Part shown: positions 9,444-22,056 of the stretch, one piece after another
Position numbering within the stretch: the stretch's first letter is position 1
Layout of the letters: the number at the start of each line of letters is the position of its first letter
DNA from: Nitrospinaceae bacterium
GTDB taxonomy: Bacteria > Nitrospinota > Nitrospinia > Nitrospinales > Nitrospinaceae
Assembly: GCA_965237905.1 (NCBI GenBank)
Contig: OZ250172.1
Location: forward strand, 1,920,001 to 1,984,000
Length of the DNA: 64,000 nucleotides
Direction: 5' to 3'
Notes under the pieces: generated by a model
Database searches by the model: none
What the model saw: the letters and a program-made list of their open reading frames with translations, nothing else
Told to the model about the DNA's origin: nothing
Made by a program: the position numbers and the translations under genes

Positions 9444-10739
9444 TCAAGCTATTCTTTGGGCAAAATGCAGGGTTTTATCCGCGTACCAGCGGTACGCTGT
9501 TTCGATTTGCGGGGTGTGCAGGTTGGGGGTGTCGTACCGGCCCGCTTCATCGAAGGGCACATACTGCATTTCCATCGAACGATAAAGCTGGTTGAGGTAA
9601 CCCTGAAAATCGGCGTACATCGGAATAAGTTTTTTCAGCTTGGGCATGGCCTGTTCTTTAAACCGCAACAACTCTCTGCCGAAGGGATGAATGGCCGCAA
9701 GCCCGTCACTGCCGTGCCGCTCCTCCGCACAATGCACCAGCGATTCGAAATCCTCCCAATCCTCCAGCGCGTCCACATCCGAAACAAACGCCGGGTCGTC
9801 GTTGAATTTGGCGAGAAACGGGGTATCCAGAAGAATCGAGGCCCCCTGGTTGAAATTCTTGAGATGGGCTCCGAATTTGAAATCGTCGTCCAGGCGGAAT
9901 TGTTTCAAATCTGAATCAAAGTGCCGGAAGTGTTTCGCCAGAACCGGTAACAGCATCAACATGCGGGCCGGCGAACGCAAGGCCTTGCTCAATCCCGCGT
10001 TGAGGATTTTTCCGTCCTTACGGGTTTGGTGCAGGAGTTCAATAATATCTTCCTCGATCGCTGACAAATTGATGGGGTAGACGTTAGGCTCTTTCACATC
10101 GTGAAGCTGTTTGGCCTTTTCAGCGATGACACGGTAATGGTAATTGCGTATTACGAATTCGCTGTCGGGGTTTTCCTTGAAATGCGGGAACATGGCTTGG
10201 CGTGAATTCACCCAGAGAATCAGGTTGTGATGTTTGAGGTCTGCATCCCGCAACACGTTTTCCAGGTCGTACATGAAAGGCAGGTCGCCCGGTTGGAACA
10301 ACACCAGTTCATTGGCGGCGAGGGAGAGTTGGTTGCGCCCGAGGATCATCGTGTTGATCAGCATCAGGTTGTCCGGGTCTTCGTGGACGAACATCACTTT
10401 TTTGCCGCGGGTGTCGATTACATCCAGAAAATGCTCCAGAATGATTTTCACTTCGGTCGAACCCACCACGACGATTTCTTTCAGGCTCGACATCAGCAGG
10501 TTGCCGAGGGCGTAGCACATGATGGGGATGCCCCGGACCAGAAACAGAAATTTGAGACGGTCGATTTCCTCCCCCGCGGCTCGCAGGATGAGGTGGCTCA
10601 CACCTTTTTTCTTCTGGGCAATTTCCCGCCGCGCTTTTTCCAGGGCGAATTTGTCCGCCAAGCTCCGGCTTTCGTAACAGTTGTGGCTGAAGCTGACGAT
10701 GCACTTATCGATTACTGGTTTGTTATTGACGCGGAACAT
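9444..10739 (-). CDS. Hypothetical protein with a divergent MobA/NTP-transferase-like fold
   Basis: ILRAAG, LKFLFLVRGIPI, EIVVVG, PGDLP and DVDALEDWE resemble nucleotidyltransferase motifs. Confidence 0.55.
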   Translation of the reverse strand: MFRVNNKPVIDKCIVSFSHNCYESRSLADKFALEKARREIAQKKKGVSHLILRAAGEEIDRLKFLFLVRGIPIMCYALGNLLMSSLKEIVVVGSTEVKIILEHFLDVIDTRGKKVMFVHEDPDNLMLINTMILGRNQLSLAANELVLFQPGDLPFMYDLENVLRDADLKHHNLILWVNSRQAMFPHFKENPDSEFVIRNYHYRVIAEKAKQLHDVKEPNVYPINLSAIEEDIIELLHQTRKDGKILNAGLSKALRSPARMLMLLPVLAKHFRHFDSDLKQFRLDDDFKFGAHLKNFNQGASILLDTPFLAKFNDDPAFVSDVDALEDWEDFESLVHCAEERHGSDGLAAIHPFGRELLRFKEQAMPKLKKLIPMYADFQGYLNQLYRSMEMQYVPFDEAGRYDTPNLHTPQIETAYRWYADKTLHFAQRIA

Positions 10740-11050
10740 GGCTTGTTTCGGGAACCCGCAAATGTGCCTCCTGAGCGAGGTCCGCCGAGATATCTCCCTG
10801 AGAAATTTTGAATCTTTTAAGTTATTGTAATTTAAAAACTAACCCCATTTCTACCAATTTTTGTTTGAAATCAAATAGTTAGTTAAACCTCATGCTACAG
10901 GGCCGCAGTGGCTCCTTTAAGCTTTCTTTCGAAAGGCGTTTAAATGCGGGTTTTCCAGCTCACCGGCCAACCTCCCAACTCTGCGAAATGACTTGATTTA
11001 TTGAGTTTATTATTCATACAATTAGTAAATACCCCTCATCAAGGTGCCGC

Positions 11051-12661
11051 ATGGGAGACCCAACCCATATTATAGAATTGATCGATCAAATGCTGGAGGA
11101 AACGGCGGATAGGCCGGACCTTCAGGAGAAAATATTCGATCTGCGCGACGCCCTTCTGCAGGCCCAGCAGTCTGCTCAACAGTATAATCTTAAAATCAAA
11201 ACGCTGGAAGAAACCATTCGCCAGCTCAAACTGCCGGCCCATCGCATCGGAACCATTCTCGGCAAGGGACAAGACGACTTGTACCGCCTGAATGTGGGCG
11301 GGACCGACTACCAGGCGGCCGTCTCTCCCGAGATTCTCGAAGACGGAGAATTGCAGGTAGGGGATCAAGTTGCGGTCAACGAAGGATTTGTCGCGATCGC
11401 CAAACTTCCCCGGCCCGAAAGAGGCCCGATATCCCGCATTGTGTCACGTTTGGACGATGGCCATTGGCTGGTCGGCGGCGGCGCCAACACTTCCGAATCC
11501 ATGGTGATTCCCTGCACCGAGTTGGAACAGGAAACCTTTAAGGAAGGGGATGAAGTCGTTCTCGATCCCACACAGAAGGTGATTATGAAGCGCCTCCCCA
11601 AACGCCAGTCCAAATCGCTGGTGGAGGACGATTACGTTCCGGTTACCTGGAAGCAGGTCGGGGGACAGGAGAAAGTAATCAAAGAAGTCCGCAAGGTCAT
11701 CGAGTACCCCATTCTACACGAAGAGATTCTTAATAAGATGGAATACCGCATGCCCAAGGGGTTCCTGTTTTACGGCCCGCCCGGTTGCGGCAAAACGCTG
11801 ATCGGCAAGGCGATCCTGTCCGACGTGGTTTCCCAGCTCAAGTCCAAGGATGAAGGCAGTAGGAATTTGGAAGGCCGGTTTATCCACGTCAAGGGTCCGG
11901 AAATTCTCAACATGTGGCTCGGTGAATCGGAACGCAAAGTCCGCGAAATTTTCAAACGGGCGCGCGAGTATAAAGAAAAGGGGAAACTCCCTTTCATCTT
12001 CATCGACGAAGCCGAATCCGTACTCGGTACGCGCCAGGCCATGCGTGGCAACAATATTTCCAATACCCTGGTCCCGATGTTCTGCGCGGAGATGGACGGC
12101 ATTCAGTCGGTGCGCGAAATGGTGGTGATCCTCGCAACCAACCGGCCCGATTTGATGGACCCCGCGATTTTAAGACCGGGACGCATCGACCGCAAAATTA
12201 AAGTGGGACGGCCCAGCCGTGAAGATTGCGAAGCCATTTTAAAAGTGTACCTCAAGCTGGAACTCCCGACCGAAGGCGACCTGATCAACCCGTTCCTTGA
12301 TCAACTGTTCAAGAGGACACCGGAGCAGGAAGCGCTGGTTTTGACACTCCGTAGCGGCGGGTTCAAAAAACTGTATTGGAAAGATTTCATTTCCGGCGCT
12401 ATTCTGGAGGGCATCGTTTTGCGTGCCAAGGAGCGCGCCATCGAGCGGGCCATTACCGGAGAAGAATTGCAGATCAAGAGTGACGACATGACGCAGGCTC
12501 TGCACAACGAGTTCACCGAGAACAGCGTTCTGCCGGCCGATTCCAATATGGAAGACTGGCTCCGGCTGCTCGACTTTGACCCGAAGAACGTGGCACGGGT
12601 ACGGCGGCCCAACGATTCCGATCAGGCCGCATCCGATACCCTTAGCCGGTCGATCATATGA
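11051..12661 (+). CDS. arc: Proteasome-associated AAA+ ATPase (ARC/Mpa)
   Basis: N-terminal coiled coil, GPPGCGKT, IFIDE, ATNRPDLMDPAILRPGRIDRKI, KDFISGA; operon context. Confidence 0.92.
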   Translation: MGDPTHIIELIDQMLEETADRPDLQEKIFDLRDALLQAQQSAQQYNLKIKTLEETIRQLKLPAHRIGTILGKGQDDLYRLNVGGTDYQAAVSPEILEDGELQVGDQVAVNEGFVAIAKLPRPERGPISRIVSRLDDGHWLVGGGANTSESMVIPCTELEQETFKEGDEVVLDPTQKVIMKRLPKRQSKSLVEDDYVPVTWKQVGGQEKVIKEVRKVIEYPILHEEILNKMEYRMPKGFLFYGPPGCGKTLIGKAILSDVVSQLKSKDEGSRNLEGRFIHVKGPEILNMWLGESERKVREIFKRAREYKEKGKLPFIFIDEAESVLGTRQAMRGNNISNTLVPMFCAEMDGIQSVREMVVILATNRPDLMDPAILRPGRIDRKIKVGRPSREDCEAILKVYLKLELPTEGDLINPFLDQLFKRTPEQEALVLTLRSGGFKKLYWKDFISGAILEGIVLRAKERAIERAITGEELQIKSDDMTQALHNEFTENSVLPADSNMEDWLRLLDFDPKNVARVRRPNDSDQAASDTLSRSII

Positions 12662-14148
12662 ACGAAATTGTACCTCTGCTGGGGATCGAAACGGAATACG
12701 GTATCATCCGGGAAGATCAAGGGGAATCTGACCCGGTCGAAGAGTCGATGCGCCTGCTGGCCCGCTGTGAAGCGAAAAGTGTTTTCAAGGCCTGGGCTTA
12801 TAACCGCGAGCGCACGCATCAGGATATGCGCGGGTTTCAGGTGTCCCGGCTGGCGCAGGATGAAGAGGAAGACGAATTTTGCGAACAGGACCGCCAGCGG
12901 CCCTATTCGTATTGGGAAATGAAAAGCGACCGGGTGCTGACCAACGGTGCGCGTTTTTACAACGATCACACGCACCCGGAATACAGCACCCCGGAATGCC
13001 GAACCGTGTTCGATCTGGTCGCACACGATCTGGCCGGCGAAACCATCGTCGGTGAATGTGTCCGCCTCCGCAACCAGGATTTGGGCGGCGACTATTTGCA
13101 GTTGTTTAAAAACAACACGGATTACAGCGGCCACAGTTACGGCACGCATGACAATTATCTGATTCCGCGCAAACTGCCGTTCGATGTCTGGGTCCAGCAT
13201 CTGGTCCCGTTTCTGGTGACGCGGCAATTGTACGCTGGGGCGGGAAAAGTCGGCGCGGAACGAAAAAACGAAGACGGGTTCACCGGTCTCCAGCTGGCGC
13301 AACGCGCCGATTTTATCGACTGCGTTCTCAGTATCGAAACCATGACCCAGCGGCCCATCATCAACACCCGCGATGAGCCGCATGCGACTCAGGATTACCG
13401 ACGTCTGCATTTGATATTGGGGGACGCCAACATGTCGCCCTACGCGACGGCGTTGAAGGTGGGGACTACCCGATTGGTGTTAACCTTGATCGGCGCCCAG
13501 AAAATGGACTCGCCGTTTGAATTGGCGGACCCGGTGGCGGACGTCCAGCGTGTGTCGCGGGATACTACCGGCAAGATTCCCCTGAAATTGCAATCGGGGA
13601 AAACTGTCACCCCGCTGGAAATCCAGGAATGGTATCTGGAGCAGGCGCTCAAGCAAACCGGTCTTTCCGGCGATACGGAAGAATGGGACTGGGTCACCCG
13701 CGAGTGGGGACGGACGTTGAACGACCTGAGGCATCACCGGGAAAACCTGGCCGACCGTATCGATTGGGCGATCAAAGAAAGCCTTTTCAAGGATTTTATG
13801 GAAGCGGAAGGCTTGCAATGGGAAGACCCGATTTTACAAAGTCTCGATTTGGAGTATCATAACCTTAACCCGGAACGTGGGCTGTATTACAGTTTGCGCG
13901 ACCAAGGCAGTGTGGCCGGGTTGATCGAGCAAAACAAAATCGACGCTGCCGTCCACCAGGCCCCGCAGGATACACGGGCCCGGATTCGAGGGCAGGCGGT
14001 CGAGCGGGAGCGTGACCATATTAAAAACATCCATTGGACGGGAATCGAATTCAACAATGGTGAGTATTTAGATCTGTCCGGACTCATCACTAAAGAAGAT
14101 GTCGTTCAGGTCCTGGATTCACACAAGGAGCAGTTTGCATGGAAATGA
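12658..14148 (+). CDS. dop: Dop-family deamidase/depupylase
   Basis: GIETEYG, LTNGARFYNDHTHPEYSTPEC, KNNTD, RPIINTRDEPHA, YRRLHLILGDAN. Confidence 0.9.
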   Translation: MNEIVPLLGIETEYGIIREDQGESDPVEESMRLLARCEAKSVFKAWAYNRERTHQDMRGFQVSRLAQDEEEDEFCEQDRQRPYSYWEMKSDRVLTNGARFYNDHTHPEYSTPECRTVFDLVAHDLAGETIVGECVRLRNQDLGGDYLQLFKNNTDYSGHSYGTHDNYLIPRKLPFDVWVQHLVPFLVTRQLYAGAGKVGAERKNEDGFTGLQLAQRADFIDCVLSIETMTQRPIINTRDEPHATQDYRRLHLILGDANMSPYATALKVGTTRLVLTLIGAQKMDSPFELADPVADVQRVSRDTTGKIPLKLQSGKTVTPLEIQEWYLEQALKQTGLSGDTEEWDWVTREWGRTLNDLRHHRENLADRIDWAIKESLFKDFMEAEGLQWEDPILQSLDLEYHNLNPERGLYYSLRDQGSVAGLIEQNKIDAAVHQAPQDTRARIRGQAVERERDHIKNIHWTGIEFNNGEYLDLSGLITKEDVVQVLDSHKEQFAWK

Positions 14149-14315
14149 ATGATCCCTTGCGGCGGGAAGAGAAGAAAGAGTCCACCCCGGACAGGAAGGA
14201 CAGTGGTCCTTCCAAACCCGATGTGAATCGGCCGGGGCGCGATGATCTTCTCAAGCGAATGAAAAAAGTCGACCCCAAGCAATCTGAAAAATACAAACAG
14301 CGAACGGGTCAATGA
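14139..14315 (+). CDS. ubact: UBact (Pup-like ubiquitin-analog tag), 58 aa, not in the supplied ORF track
   Basis: MEMNDPLRREEKKESTPDRKDSGPSKPDVNRPGRDDLLKRMKKVDPKQSEKYKQRTGQ; AAGGAG RBS at 14125-14130; overlaps the dop stop and prcB start (ATGA). Confidence 0.92.
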   Translation: MEMNDPLRREEKKESTPDRKDSGPSKPDVNRPGRDDLLKRMKKVDPKQSEKYKQRTGQ

Positions 14316-15112
14316 GCGATAAACCGGATAATTTTAATGGGCCGGGAGATTTTATCGATCTCCTGGAGCGGTCGGGTTATTCCTGGCCCAAAGCGATTGC
14401 AGGTTTGACCGCCATCGACAAGGCCAGTCTGCCCCAGGGCACCACCGTGCTGGCTTTTCATTTCAAGGATGGCGTGATCGTTGCCGGAGACCGCCGTGCC
14501 ACCGCGGGCAATGCCATTATGTACGAGCGGTGCGACAAGGTGATTCCCATCGACGACTATTCCCTGATGGCCATCGCCGGGGTTCCCGCCACGGCGTTCG
14601 AGATGGCCCGCGTCCTTTCGCACAACTTCGAATATTACCGCCGGTCGCAACTGCAACCCTTAAGCACCGAAGGCAAAATCCGCGCCCTGTCCAAACTTTT
14701 GAAGGACAACATGGGACTCGCCCTGCAGGGTGTCGGCGCGGTCAGCCCCCTCTTTGCGTCCTACGACAAAAAAGAAGATAAGCCCTATCTTTATTATTAC
14801 GATCTTCTGGGAGCGCAGTTTGAAATTCAGACCCACACCGCCACCGGTTCCGGGTCGCCGGTGATTCGCGGTATCCTCGAATACGAAGATCTCTGGGGAA
14901 CTCAAAAGCTGGTGCAAAGGGATATGAAGGGAGCCGCCAAACTGGCCATACGGCTTTTGCAAACTGCCGGGCAGTTCGACAGCGCCACCGGGCAGGCCCG
15001 TCCCGAAGACAAAATTTATCCGATTATTGCCAGCGTTACCGATCAAGGTTACCAATTCATGCCGGAAGAGGAACTGGCGGGACTGTTTCAGGAATCCACT
15101 AAAAGGAAATAA
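14312..15112 (+). CDS. prcB: 20S proteasome beta subunit
   Basis: 43-aa propeptide then QG|TTVLA, AGDRRATAG, GSGS, DSATG. Confidence 0.93.
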   Translation: MSDKPDNFNGPGDFIDLLERSGYSWPKAIAGLTAIDKASLPQGTTVLAFHFKDGVIVAGDRRATAGNAIMYERCDKVIPIDDYSLMAIAGVPATAFEMARVLSHNFEYYRRSQLQPLSTEGKIRALSKLLKDNMGLALQGVGAVSPLFASYDKKEDKPYLYYYDLLGAQFEIQTHTATGSGSPVIRGILEYEDLWGTQKLVQRDMKGAAKLAIRLLQTAGQFDSATGQARPEDKIYPIIASVTDQGYQFMPEEELAGLFQESTKRK

Positions 15113-15114
15113 CC

Positions 15115-15861
15115 ATGTTTGATGAACCGTTTCGCTGGATGGAGGCCATTTCCACCCGCCACAGTTACGTCCAGGAGAAACTGAAAAAAGGCCAGCCGGT
15201 GCTTGCGGTGCCTTATAAAGAAGGCTCGCTGGTGATGGGATTTACCGCCCAGCCCGGAAAAATTTTTGAAGTGTATGACCGCATCGCGCTGGGTAGTCTC
15301 GGACATCCTGCCGACGTCGAACGTCTGCGCATGACTCTCTTGGACATGGCGCACGTGGAAGGATTCAACCGGTCGGACAAAGATGTGACCATTGCCCGGC
15401 TCCTCCAGTTCGGCATCGCTCCCGCCATGAAACAGAACTTTGAAGAAGTGATGCGGGCGCCGTATCTGGTCAAACTGTTGTTCGCCGAAATCGATTTCGA
15501 TAACCGACCGTTATTCTTCCGGCTCAATTACGACGGGCACTGGGAGATGTTCAAAAAGGGAGCGGTGATTTCCGGCAACGATAAGGAATCGAAATGGATT
15601 CAAAAACAAATTGAGCAGACCGATTTTGCCTCGCTTTCGCTGAAGCAAGCATTGAAGGAAGCGTGCCGCCTGTGGGAAGAGGGCAAGAAGCAAGCTTCGC
15701 CCGAATCTGAAGACGCCGAGGAACAACCGATGACCCTGTCCGAGGCGTTCGACCGGTGGACACTGGAGGCAGCGGTGCTCTCCACCAAAACAGAGCGTAA
15801 GGCCTTGTACCGGGTGCTGACTCCGGATGAAATTGAACCCTTGAAAGCGGCGGCCAAATAA
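15115..15861 (+). CDS. prcA: 20S proteasome alpha subunit
   Basis: KIFEVYDRIA motif; lies directly after prcB. Confidence 0.88.
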   Translation: MFDEPFRWMEAISTRHSYVQEKLKKGQPVLAVPYKEGSLVMGFTAQPGKIFEVYDRIALGSLGHPADVERLRMTLLDMAHVEGFNRSDKDVTIARLLQFGIAPAMKQNFEEVMRAPYLVKLLFAEIDFDNRPLFFRLNYDGHWEMFKKGAVISGNDKESKWIQKQIEQTDFASLSLKQALKEACRLWEEGKKQASPESEDAEEQPMTLSEAFDRWTLEAAVLSTKTERKALYRVLTPDEIEPLKAAAK

Positions 15862-15863
15862 AT

Positions 15864-17321
15864 ATGAAACGCAGAATATACGGGATTGAAACGGAGTACG
15901 GCCTCTTGATCAAGGAGGATGATTTCAAATACGGTCCCATTGACGTCGCGGTTCGCATCAAAAATCATATCTTCGACCAGAAGCAGGGTGTGCTCGATTT
16001 GCATTACCGCGCCAACGACGAGCCGCCCGGCAACGGTGGATTCCTCGCCAACGGCGGCCGGATTTATCTCGACATGGGCCATCTCGAATACGCCTCGCCG
16101 GAATGTTCCAATCTGGTGGACCTGGTCACGTTCGACCGCGCCGGGGACAATATTGTGCAAAAAGCACTGGAGGAATTGGGTTGGGCGGACCAGGTGGCGT
16201 TTATTAAAAACAATGTCGATCTGGAAACCAACGCCACCTTCGGGTGCCATGAGAATTATCTGGTCAGCCGCGCGTTCCAGTTTGATAACCGCGAAAACCT
16301 GCGGCTTCTGGCGTCGTTTCTGGTAACCCGGCAGATTTATGCCGGCACCGGACGAACCGGTGCCTGCAACCCGCAACCGTTCCGCGATTGGGATGATGTT
16401 CACCAGACGCGTAAAGATACCGAAGAGGTCAATTTCCAGATATCCCAGCGTGCGGATCATATCCCCAACGAGTTTTACCGATGGGTGCAATACAACCGCG
16501 CCATCGTCAACACCCGCGACGAACCGTTGTCCGATCCCAGCAAGTACCGGCGCATTCATTTGTTGGTCGGTGATTCCAACATGAGTGATTTCGCCTGCGC
16601 CCTCAAGATGGGCACCACGTCCCTGATGATGGAGCTGATCGAGTTGGGAGTGGCGGACCCGGCATGGATTCTATCCGATTCCGTGAATGCCATGCGGGAT
16701 ATCTCCCGGGATCAGGAGTTCAAGTGGGAAATCACTCTGCGGGACGGTAACCAAAGCACCGCGCTGGAGTTGCAATGGGAAATGATGCAGGTTGGGAAAA
16801 AATACCTGGCGGGATCTTCGAGTGACGCTGATTGGGTGTTGGGAGCTTGGGAATCGGTGCTGACCGATATGCCCAAAGGACCGGAAGCGCTCATCGGACG
16901 GGTGGACTGGGCCAGCAAATACTGGATGCTCACCGAATTCATGAAGTCGGAAAATGTGGGATGGCAGGATCCCTGGATTAAAAGTCTCGACCTGGAGTTT
17001 CATAATCTCAATAAAGCGCACGGACTGTATTGGGGACTGGAAGAAAACGGAGACGCCCATCGCAAAACCTCCGATGAAGCCATCCTGTTCGCGCAGTCCA
17101 ACGCACCCAAGGGCACCCGCGCCGACGGTCGCGGCGAATTGGTAAAAACATTATTGGAATGCCAGACCGGTTATCTGATCGACTGGATCGGTTTCCGCCT
17201 GAATAAAGAAGAACCCTTCCTTATGCTGGACCCCTTCATTTCCTACAAAAAAGAAATTCAAGACTACCTGCGAAGTATGGATTTGCAGGACCCCTTCGGC
17301 GGTAAAAATTATTTTAGTTAA
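15864..17321 (+). CDS. pafA: PafA-family tag-protein ligase
   Basis: RRIYGIETEYG, FLANGGRIYLDMGHLEYASPEC, FGCHENY, NTRDEP, YRRIHLLVGDSNMS. Confidence 0.9.
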   Translation: MKRRIYGIETEYGLLIKEDDFKYGPIDVAVRIKNHIFDQKQGVLDLHYRANDEPPGNGGFLANGGRIYLDMGHLEYASPECSNLVDLVTFDRAGDNIVQKALEELGWADQVAFIKNNVDLETNATFGCHENYLVSRAFQFDNRENLRLLASFLVTRQIYAGTGRTGACNPQPFRDWDDVHQTRKDTEEVNFQISQRADHIPNEFYRWVQYNRAIVNTRDEPLSDPSKYRRIHLLVGDSNMSDFACALKMGTTSLMMELIELGVADPAWILSDSVNAMRDISRDQEFKWEITLRDGNQSTALELQWEMMQVGKKYLAGSSSDADWVLGAWESVLTDMPKGPEALIGRVDWASKYWMLTEFMKSENVGWQDPWIKSLDLEFHNLNKAHGLYWGLEENGDAHRKTSDEAILFAQSNAPKGTRADGRGELVKTLLECQTGYLIDWIGFRLNKEEPFLMLDPFISYKKEIQDYLRSMDLQDPFGGKNYFS

Positions 17322-17485: not shown

Positions 17486-17833
17486 TTGGAGGACAATTGT
17501 CTGTTTTGCAAAATTGCCAGTGGAAAGATGGATTCCGAAACAGTTTATAATGATGGGAATTTGATAGCTATTAAAGACATCAATCCGCAGGCCCCAACGC
17601 ATCTGTTGATCATTCCTAAAAAGCATTTTGGAACTCTCATGGATATTGAGGATTCGGACAAGGAGCTGATGGGGTCCGTGTGTACCTTGGCCAAATTCCT
17701 GGCCCAGGAAAACGATCTGGAGGCATCCGGCTTCCGTTTGGTGCTCAATTGCGGGTCGGGCGCCGGGCAGTCGGTGTTTCATATTCATTTTCATCTGTTG
17801 GGCGGAAGGCCCATGAAGTGGCCTCCCGGTTAA
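17486..17833 (+). CDS. hinT: HIT-family nucleotide-binding protein
   Basis: CLFCKI, DINPQAPTH, GQSVFHIHFH triad; AAGGAGG RBS with TTG start. Confidence 0.9.
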   Translation: MEDNCLFCKIASGKMDSETVYNDGNLIAIKDINPQAPTHLLIIPKKHFGTLMDIEDSDKELMGSVCTLAKFLAQENDLEASGFRLVLNCGSGAGQSVFHIHFHLLGGRPMKWPPG

Positions 17834-17837
17834 TCGC

Positions 17838-18863
17838 ATGATCACAGTCGAACAATTATATGAAAAACTAAAACCGATTAAGGTCGGCAGTCCCCTGTGC
17901 GAATTTACGCTCGAGCATTGTCAGCGGATTTATCCCATCATCAGCCGCATCGAAGAACTCAAGCGGAAGAAGAACGCCATCATCCTGGCGCACAATTATG
18001 TCGCGCCGGAAATTTTGTATGGAGTCGCCGACCACACTGGAGATTCCTACGGCCTGGCCAAGATCGCCCGCGATTCCGATGCGGAAGTGATCGTCTTTCC
18101 CGCCGTGCGGTTCATGGCGGAAACCGCAAAAATTTTAAATCCCAATAAAACGGTCCTCGATCCCAATCCCGACGGCGGTTGTTCCCTGGCGGATGGTATT
18201 ACCGCCGCCGATGTCCGGCGCCTGCGGAAGGAATTTCCCGATCACACCTTTGTCTGCTATATCAACACCACCGCCGAAGTAAAGGCTTTGTGTGACGTGT
18301 GCGTGACGTCCTCCAATGTGTATCACATTGTGGAAACCATCGATAATGACAATATCTATTTTCTGCCCGACAAGTTGATGGCCATGAATGTGGTTCATTA
18401 TTTGCAGGATCGGGGAATCAAAAAAAATATTTCCTGGTACGACGGCACCTGTTATGTGCACGAGGAATACGCGCCCGACGCCATCGACTTTGTCCGCACC
18501 GGCAATCCGAATGTCGATGTGCTGGTGCATCCGGAATGCCATCCCGCAGTGGTCCAGAAGGCGGATTTCGTGGGGAGTACCACGAGTATGCTCAACCACG
18601 TTCGCGAATCCAGTGGCGATACGTTTTTCCTGCTTACGGAGTGCGGGCTGACCGGTATTTTACAATCCGAGTTTCCCGAAAAGCGGTTCGTGGGTTCCTG
18701 TACCATGTGCAAATACATGAAGTCCAATTCCCTGCAGGATGTTTTGCAAGCCTTGGAGAATCCGCGTCCGGATCAGATCATTGAGCTTTCCCCTGAAGTC
18801 CGGCAGAACGCGCTGCGTTGTGTCGAACGCATGTTCGAATACACGGAACAAATCTCTTCCTGA
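17838..18863 (+). CDS. nadA: Quinolinate synthase
   Basis: AHNY, GDSY, RFMAET, GCSLAD, CYVH, HPEC, CKYMK. Confidence 0.93.
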   Translation: MITVEQLYEKLKPIKVGSPLCEFTLEHCQRIYPIISRIEELKRKKNAIILAHNYVAPEILYGVADHTGDSYGLAKIARDSDAEVIVFPAVRFMAETAKILNPNKTVLDPNPDGGCSLADGITAADVRRLRKEFPDHTFVCYINTTAEVKALCDVCVTSSNVYHIVETIDNDNIYFLPDKLMAMNVVHYLQDRGIKKNISWYDGTCYVHEEYAPDAIDFVRTGNPNVDVLVHPECHPAVVQKADFVGSTTSMLNHVRESSGDTFFLLTECGLTGILQSEFPEKRFVGSCTMCKYMKSNSLQDVLQALENPRPDQIIELSPEVRQNALRCVERMFEYTEQISS

Positions 18864-18870
18864 ACGCCCT

Positions 18871-22056
<3,186 letters not shown>

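What the first reader, a model, noticed from the sequence alone, without database searches (positions are those of the whole stretch)
11051..17321. Complete UBact-proteasome operon in a Gram-negative genome, with an easily missed tag gene
Seen: arc-dop-(58-aa ORF)-prcB-prcA-pafA with overlapping or 2-nt junctions. The small ORF is charged, likely disordered, and ends RTGQ. Known: Pup ends GG[E/Q]; UBact, reported in some Gram-negative phyla, ends R[T/S]G[E/Q] and has had little biochemical characterisation as far as I know. Inference: the terminal Gln needs Dop deamidation before PafA ligation; substrates are unknown. The system is described, but under-studied.
Basis: partly seen in the sequence, partly recalled or inferred. 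Interest (0 to 1): 0.75.

Follow-up and report, generated by a model that had tools for sequence, protein, structure and literature searches.

The report
UBact proteasome operon, tyrosine-free ATPase tail
This is an intact copy, in a Nitrospinaceae bacterium, of an already described six-gene cluster that likely tags proteins with the small protein UBact and destroys them in a bacterial proteasome; it is ordinary for its lineage, except that its unfolding motor lacks the tyrosine tail that studied proteasome motors dock with, so it likely docks in a different, untested way.

Summary
Confirmed: arc-dop-ubact-prcB-prcA-pafA, all intact, with junctions of -4, -10, -4, +2 and +2 nt. The 58-aa ORF scores 74.7 bits against NCBIfam UBact (cut-off 35), is under purifying selection and has a conserved ribosome-binding site. 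The host is Nitrospinaceae. UBact is in 94 of 102 genomes of the order, and relatives already carry that name, so this is a new copy of a known, apparently untested system. The tag gene is not overlooked.

Best reading (inferred): Dop turns the terminal Gln into Glu, the PafA-like enzyme ligates the tag to lysines, and ARC feeds tagged proteins to the 20S core.

Differences from Pup systems: ARC ends RS[IVM][IL] with no tyrosine (78 of 78 Nitrospinota-type loci). The alpha-subunit glutamate that binds that tyrosine in mycobacteria is hydrophobic (76 of 76), while the pocket lysine is kept. The tag is basic, not acidic. Poribacteria carry both system types, and each keeps its own pattern. This reflects one ancestral split, so it is not independent proof of co-adaptation. 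I found no paper on the tail, but could not read the 2017 UBact paper. This scan has noted both the operon and the tail before, on other DNA.

The parts
11051..12661 (+). arc: Mpa/ARC-type AAA+ unfoldase, 536 aa (N-terminal helices, two OB domains, Walker A GPPGCGKT, Walker B FIDE, pore loop MWLG)
   Evidence: TIGR03689 373 bits, below its actinobacterial cut-off of 504.75; PF17758, PF16450, PF00004; best Foldseek match mycobacterial Mpa 7pxc, E 1e-34
12647..12658 (+). ARC C-terminal tetrapeptide RSII, in place of GQYL/HbYX; predicted proteasome-docking tail
   Evidence: RS[IVM][IL] in 78 of 78 Nitrospinota-type loci with a complete end; docking role inferred, untested
12658..14148 (+). dop: predicted deamidase/deconjugase, 496 aa, with GIETE motif, Dop-loop and D103-H104
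   Evidence: TIGR03688 420 bits versus PafA model 373; A. cellulolyticus Dop 4b0r E 1.5e-95; residues conserved in 35 of 35 orthologues
14125..14130 (+). AAGGAG ribosome-binding site of ubact, inside the dop 3' end
   Evidence: sequence; similar site before the start in most of 40 orthologous loci
14139..14315 (+). ubact: 58-aa basic, predicted disordered tag ending RTGQ
   Evidence: NF033388 74.7 bits, PF20513 74.6 bits; composition; synonymous excess; no BLASTP alignment to a Poribacteria Pup
14312..15112 (+). prcB: 20S beta subunit, 43-aa propeptide, Thr1 at residue 44 (14441-14443), with D60 and K76
   Evidence: residue 44 aligns with residue 1 of mature beta chains; T44, D60, K76 in 36 of 36 orthologues
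15115..15861 (+). prcA: 20S alpha subunit; K49 (15259-15261) matches mycobacterial Lys52, L118 (15466-15468) sits at mycobacterial Glu119
   Evidence: alignment to 3h6f, E 1.3e-7; column counts
15864..17321 (+). pafA-like: predicted UBact-protein ligase, 485 aa, catalytic D70, no Dop His, divergent alpha-loop
   Evidence: TIGR03686 329 bits versus Dop model 303; C. glutamicum PafA 4b0t E 1.9e-72; column counts

Best explanation
The six intact genes form a UBact tag-and-proteasome operon that likely marks proteins for destruction: Dop would convert the tag's terminal Gln to Glu, the PafA-like enzyme would join that Glu to lysines of target proteins using ATP, and ARC would capture and unfold tagged proteins and likely feed them into the PrcA/PrcB core by docking a tyrosine-free Ile/Val tail. 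Shown here: the genes, their coupling, the tag family, the catalytic residues, the conserved tail RS[IVM][IL], the kept pocket lysine (K49) and the Glu-to-hydrophobic change (L118). Inferred from the mycobacterial system: every reaction step, and that the tail's terminal carboxylate pairs with K49 while its aliphatic side chains pack where the tyrosine would sit. Also inferred: the basic tag is read by the more acidic N-terminal helices of this ARC. Substrates and trigger conditions are not known; a housekeeping or stress-recycling role is a guess from near-universal retention in the order.
For: Family hits and intact frames. Single copy in the genome, no second ARC, ligase pair or 20S gene by tblastn; no Pup in 120 of 120 phylum genomes, with a ringing control. 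UBact in 94 of 102 genomes of the order; Pup-ligase family in 49 of 58 genomes of at least 90% completeness. Catalytic residues kept in Dop, ligase and beta subunit. Tag ends toggle Q/E. ARC tail has no aromatic residue in 78 of 78 Nitrospinota-type loci, 21 of 21 Poribacteria UBact-clade ARCs and 73 of 74 complete metagenome ARCs, whereas 21 of 21 Pup-linked ARCs of Poribacteria end Gx[YF]L. Alpha position 118 is L/I/M/V in 76 of 76 UBact-type and E in 21 of 21 Pup-type subunits; K49 is invariant in all 97. In mycobacteria Glu119 binds the tail tyrosine and Lys52 the terminal carboxylate (PMC9599533 section 6). Last 30 tag residues average +6.5 and +6.2 for UBact versus -10.9 for Pup; ARC N-terminal 61 residues average -5.0 and -3.2 versus +0.9.
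Against: No biochemistry or expression was shown here. All tyrosine-free ARCs next to UBact fall in one clade (37 rows, SH-aLRT 98, quick tree), so tail, pocket and charge differences are one ancestral event and any clade-specific residue would show the same pattern. Only the last one or two tail residues are similar across lineages (RSII, SPVI, SGIV, RTIE), a weak motif. The mycobacterial Arg26 position does not separate the two types: it varies in Pup-type Poribacteria too (Q 12, K 5, R 2, Y 2 of 21). The mycobacterial E119A mutant was inactive apparently through failed propeptide processing, so that residue may matter for assembly rather than docking. ARC charge ranges touch (-6 to 0 versus -1 to +4). 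The ligase alpha-loop matches neither Dop nor actinobacterial PafA signatures, and P79 is Dop-like. Several metagenome loci hold arc-dop or arc with no tag or 20S gene in up to 9 kb downstream.
Confidence: 0.72

Rival explanations
1. Tagging works as above, but ARC does not dock through its tail. It unfolds or disassembles tagged proteins on its own, or binds the core only through its beta-hairpin surface or an unknown adaptor, and the 20S core works largely uncapped.
For: The GQYL motif is called essential for gate opening in mycobacteria (PMC12288473) and is absent here. A second, hairpin-to-H0 contact exists in Mpa (PMC9599533; PMC8755798). The alpha N-terminus differs (M[FL][DE]EP[FY]RW). 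arc-dop loci without adjacent 20S genes occur. ARC acting without a proteasome in Corynebacterium is recalled, not checked.
Against: The terminal Ile is invariant in 33 of 33 aligned UBact-type ARCs (I536), and tail length past the last strand is similar, whereas tail-less Pup-clade ARCs end variably. K49 is invariant. arc and the 20S genes share one coupled operon. No other long ORF in the genome ends in a plausible GxYL or RS[IVM][IL] tail.
Confidence: 0.17
2. The two Pup-ligase-family enzymes do not divide the work as in mycobacteria. The gene-6 enzyme might use UBact-Gln directly or act with gene 2 as a heterodimer, so the Dop step would not be obligatory.
For: Gene 6 has a mixed signature: about 14 extra residues where Dop has its loop, a Dop-length DMGH segment, Dop-like P79, and an alpha-loop unlike either enzyme. 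An engineered Dop-to-PafA hybrid ligated Pup-Gln directly (PMC7947786). A heterodimer was once proposed (PMC2588565).
Against: Gene 6 lacks Dop's His next to the catalytic Asp and keeps PafA-type L69, G72, A77 and H199; gene 2 keeps D103-H104, STP and the Dop-loop. Each scores best on its expected model.
Confidence: 0.09
3. The small ORF is a spurious or dead frame, and the locus is a decaying relic.
For: None beyond the lack of peptide data.
Against: Curated family hits, synonymous excess and conserved ribosome-binding site, presence in 94 of 102 genomes of the order, intact partners.
Confidence: 0.02

Closest known systems
UBact conjugation-proteasome loci of Gram-negative bacteria (NCBIfam NF033388, Pfam PF20513; Lehmann et al. 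2017, BBRC 483:946, title seen only in a reference list; content recalled)
   Same: Tag family above cut-off, R-T-G-Q end, Dop and PafA homologues, ARC and both 20S genes, order arc-dop-ubact-prcB-prcA-pafA. Tags of N. watsonii (88%) and N. gracilis (85%) are already named UBact.
   Different: Nothing specific to this copy. The tyrosine-free tail, hydrophobic alpha 118 and basic tag are shared by the family members examined.
Actinobacterial Pup-proteasome system (Mpa/ARC, Dop, Pup, PrcB, PrcA, PafA)
   Same: Homologous enzymes with catalytic residues kept; ARC fold matches Mpa; disordered tag ending G-[EQ]; pocket lysine kept.
   Different: All five actinobacterial equivalog cut-offs are missed. 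The tag has no alignable similarity to a Pup and opposite charge. ARC lacks GQYL and has pore loop MWLG where Pup-type ARCs have KYVG and Mpa has K340-F341-V342-G343. Alpha Glu119 is Leu. The ligase alpha-loop differs.
Pup-type operon of Poribacteria (same gene order, second system beside a UBact operon)
   Same: Same six-gene order; about 34-40% identity to the window's ARC, Dop, beta subunit and ligase.
   Different: Acidic tag ending RGG[EQ], ARC ending Gx[YF]L, alpha Glu at 118.

Membership tests
UBact-proteasome system | Small protein matching the UBact family model | tested here: met
   NF033388 74.7 bits (cut-off 35); PF20513 74.6 (27.8)
   RTGQ; RTGQ 36, RTGE 4 of 40 orthologues
UBact-proteasome system | Adjacent Dop and PafA homologues with catalytic residues | tested here: met
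UBact-proteasome system | Adjacent ARC ATPase and 20S alpha and beta genes | tested here: met
UBact-proteasome system | Covalent attachment of the tag to lysines and proteasomal degradation | not testable with these tools
   needs biochemistry; no report found in the searches
Actinobacterial Pup-proteasome system | Pup (PF05639, GG[EQ] end) | tested here: not met
   0 of 120 phylum genomes, control C. glutamicum rings; no alignment to a Pup
Actinobacterial Pup-proteasome system | ARC/Mpa ending in GQYL with penultimate Tyr | tested here: not met
   ends RSII; 78 of 78 relatives RS[IVM][IL]
Actinobacterial Pup-proteasome system | Equivalog cut-offs of TIGR03686, 03688, 03689, 03690, 03691 | tested here: not met
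   329/551, 420/492, 373/505, 165/192, 53/139 bits
Actinobacterial Pup-proteasome system | Beta subunit with propeptide and Thr1; alpha pocket lysine | tested here: met
   T44, D60, K76; K49
Actinobacterial Pup-proteasome system | Accessory activator Bpa/PafE | tested here: inconclusive
   no match in the genome, but no control rang

The most novel reading that the evidence does not exclude
UBact systems are a chemically orthogonal second bacterial proteasome pathway: a basic tag read by acidic ARC helices, and an ATPase that opens its 20S core with a tyrosine-free Ile/Val tail in a pocket remodelled from Glu to Leu/Ile. That would be a proteasomal ATPase ring gating its core with no HbYX tyrosine on any subunit, and it would let Pup and UBact proteasomes run side by side in one cell without cross-talk, as in Poribacteria.
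Probability: 0.45. Interest if true: 0.6.

Novelty: new member of a known kind. Interest (0 to 1): 0.32.

Why it matters
As a locus it adds little: it is the standard copy in its order. As a test case it is useful. Nitrospinaceae carry UBact alone, with no Pup, in one compact operon, and the family includes named species, so any tagged proteome can be assigned to this system. Reviews of 2025 and 2026 (passages read) treat the GQYL/HbYX tyrosine as the key to gate opening and bacterial proteasomes as mainly actinobacterial. If this ARC opens its core without the tyrosine, the general rule for proteasome activation needs widening, and the Pup/UBact pair gives a natural experiment in how two tag systems stay separate.

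Tried and rejected
Complex prediction of three alpha subunits with ARC residues 507-536: verdict 'no answer', score 0.00, controls not folded; not used as evidence either way. Sequencing runs: no RNA holder listed, so no reads were laid; no evidence on expression. Bpa search: nothing rang, control included. Promoter and terminator scan: 10 and 15 sites against 5.9 and 11.8 expected; one consensus site at 10993-11022 lies before arc but is weak, and no convincing terminator follows pafA. No solved structure resembles the tag (best E 1.2). Idea that PafA's C-terminus (…NYFS) supplies a docking motif: rejected, the end is not conserved. Idea that loss of the Arg26 equivalent marks UBact-type alpha subunits: rejected, Pup-type Poribacteria lack it too. 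Alternative tag start at 14145 (56 aa): less likely, the ribosome-binding site spacing fits 14139. The careful tree did not finish; the quick tree is used. A planned count of neighbour conservation and of pore-loop residues over all loci was not obtained; the pore loop rests on 33 and 7 aligned sequences. The 2017 UBact paper was not held by DOI or PubMed id. PMC8665760 gave no hit for six terms. PMC7203096 lists two UBact mentions but none in the first 300,000 characters held.
Full report
Observation. Junctions are -4, -10, -4, +2, +2 nt. The small protein is half charged residues, net +5, FoldIndex -0.49, and ends RTGQ. It passes both curated UBact models by a wide margin (74.7 bits against 35; 74.6 against 27.8). 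Across 40 orthologous loci (38 distinct sequences) its last 30 codons show 448 synonymous against 139 non-synonymous codon differences from the window, and an AAGGAG precedes the start. It is a real, conserved gene.

Host and distribution. The closest ARC relatives (88-96% identity) come from records labelled Nitrospinaceae, Nitrospina or Nitrospinota, and two labelled Nitrospirota/Nitrospirae. The genome is one contig of 3.09 Mb, 96% complete, and holds one copy of each gene; the other AAA hits are weak and partial. UBact was found in 94 of 120 genomes of the phylum: 94 of 102 in the window's order and 0 of 18 in the other orders. Pup was found in 0 of 120, with the control ringing. The Pup-ligase family was found in 49 of 58 genomes of at least 90% completeness, the same order again. 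Of 40 loci fetched (chosen for contig length from the 94 hits), 12 have prcA moved ahead of ubact; the window has the commoner order. Tags of N. watsonii and N. gracilis already bear the name UBact. The locus is therefore ordinary for its lineage.

Enzymes. Gene 2 scores best on the Dop model and aligns to A. cellulolyticus Dop with the Dop-loop, Asp-His (D103-H104) and STP present. These are Dop-type positions in Table 1 of PMC7947786 (parts 1-3 of 8 read). Gene 6 scores best on PafA, has the catalytic Asp (D70), lacks Dop's neighbouring His, and keeps PafA-type L69, G72, A77 and H199. Its alpha-loop (residues 199-212) is near-invariant in 38 orthologues but matches neither actinobacterial enzyme, and P79 is Dop-like. 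That loop was reported to contact substrates, so substrate choice may differ. The beta subunit has a 43-residue propeptide, Thr1, D60 and K76. The ARC model (mean pLDDT 73, tail 523-536 under 50) matches mycobacterial Mpa best. None of the five large proteins reaches the actinobacterial equivalog cut-off.

The ARC tail. Mpa docks on the core with a C-terminal GQYL motif (passages of PMC8142254, PMC8755798; part 1 of 4 of PMC12288473). This ARC ends RSII. Of 80 loci, 79 held the ARC end: 78 Nitrospinota-type ended RSII (58), RSVI (13), RSMI (6) or RSIL (1), and one Poribacteria ARC ended SPVI. These overlap the genomes and are not a second sample. In a sample of 61 genomes from the phylum of that Poribacteria record, 56 carry two ARC genes. 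I fetched 21 loci of each kind. The 21 high-scoring ARCs all sit with a Pup (RGG[EQ]) and end GxYL (18) or GxFL (3). The 21 lower-scoring ARCs have no aromatic residue in the last four positions, and 19 have a UBact downstream; two show arc-dop only in the stretch fetched. A metagenome scan seeded with this clade gave 80 loci: 74 with a complete ARC, of which 73 end in a small or aliphatic pair; the other is split into two frames. UBact was seen in 26 and Pup in none; many loci are short. That set was selected by the clade's own motifs.

The pocket. In the mycobacterial complex the tail tyrosine bonds to alpha Arg26 or Glu119 and the terminal carboxylate to Lys52 (PMC9599533, passages and section 6). 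The window's K49 aligns to Lys52 and L118 to Glu119. K49 is invariant in all 97 alpha subunits aligned. Position 118 is L/I/M/V in 76 of 76 UBact-type subunits (window, 38 Nitrospinota, 19 Poribacteria, 18 metagenome) and Glu in 21 of 21 Pup-type. Against this: the Arg26 position does not separate the types, and E119A in mycobacteria seemed to block propeptide processing, so the residue may serve assembly.

Charge. The last 30 residues average +6.5 (40 Nitrospinota UBact), +6.2 (19 Poribacteria UBact) and -10.9 (21 Pup). The 61 ARC residues before the first OB domain average -5.0 (36), -3.2 (21) and +0.9 (21), with touching ranges. The pore loop is MWLG in 33 of 33 aligned UBact-type ARCs and KYVG in the three Pup-type ARCs aligned; Mpa has a conserved lysine there (PMC8755798 passages). 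These fit a basic tag but do not prove the contact.

How far this goes. A quick maximum-likelihood tree of 75 ARC-like proteins puts 36 aliphatic-tail ARCs and one long-branch protein ending AGLT in one clade (SH-aLRT 98), and all 20 tyrosine/phenylalanine-tail ARCs in another of 31 rows (99). Two unrelated rows also matched my loose 'aliphatic' label. Tail, pocket and charge thus changed along one branch. The pattern is structurally sensible but is a single contrast, not a test of co-evolution.

Mechanism. Most likely (0.72): deamidation by Dop, ligation by the PafA-like enzyme, capture and unfolding by ARC, tail docking through the terminal carboxylate and K49, and degradation by the Thr1 core. 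All reaction steps are inferred from the Pup system. Rivals: ARC acts without tail docking (0.17); the two enzymes share work differently (0.09); dead ORF (0.02).

What is known. UBact was named in Lehmann et al. 2017, of which I saw only the title in a reference list; the paper and its supplements were not held and may bear on the tail. Dop/PafA homologues in Nitrospinae are noted in PMC7947786, Pup-like tags outside Actinobacteria in PMC2588565 (passages), a separate Gram-negative 20S cluster in PMC5666114 (passages), and PMC11354881 names UBact once. Nine searches of the open library showed no biochemical study of UBact and no remark on its ARC tail in the listings and passages I read; most subscription journals are not covered. 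Earlier AI notes of this scan list 189 findings with both words, and several already describe the tyrosine-free tail, the matching pocket, the Poribacteria pair and the rearranged order. I had the tail before reading them and counted it here myself; they are not support.

Verdict. Real, correctly read, and a new copy of a known kind. Interest 0.32: low for the locus, raised by a testable, apparently unpublished departure from the tyrosine docking rule that holds across the family members examined.

Noticed in passing
window 14309-14315; L031-L070: The last base of the tag's final codon is the first base of the prcB start codon. 35 of 40 loci have ATGA and 5 GTGA; final codons are CAA 35, GAG 4, CAG 1, so the Q/E toggle goes with the choice of start codon.
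   Followed up: partly
L041, L043, L045-L047, L051-L054, L056, L061, L064: Order arc-dop-prcA-ubact-prcB-pafA in 12 of 40 loci, all from one family of the order.
   Followed up: partly
G120-G180; L151-L192: 56 of 61 sampled Poribacteria genomes carry two ARC genes, and fetched loci show one Pup and one UBact operon.
   Followed up: yes
L247, L248, L249, L251, L252, L253, L259, just after dop: In these arc-dop loci the place of the tag holds a similar ORF of about 110-170 codons starting MKSAY, with no G[EQ] end and no 20S gene seen. Identity unknown.
   Followed up: no
L213, L219, L226, L236, L260, L263 (arc-dop); L214, L223, L240 (arc only): UBact-clade ARC with no tag or 20S gene in 5-9 kb downstream: split loci or reduced systems.
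   Followed up: no
window 17486-18863: A HIT-family hydrolase and nadA follow pafA on the same strand after 164 nt. Link to the operon not tested.
   Followed up: no
window 9444-10739 (-): Divergent 431-aa gene with only a weak MobA-like NTP transferase hit (E 0.00088, under the cut-off).
   Followed up: no
P0122: An 894-aa protein with two ARC-matching stretches and tail EGSI: tandem fusion or assembly artefact.
   Followed up: no
P0206, P0254, P0256, P0247, P0252, P0228, P0241: ARC-like proteins outside both the Pup and UBact clades, with unrelated tails.
   Followed up: no
L050 (G015:C3:183991-185306): The pafA-like gene is in two pieces with a TAG inside: assembly error or pseudogene.
   Followed up: no
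window 18871-22041 (-): 1056-aa ORF that looks like a CzcA/CusA-type RND efflux pump (recalled resemblance, not tested).
   Followed up: no
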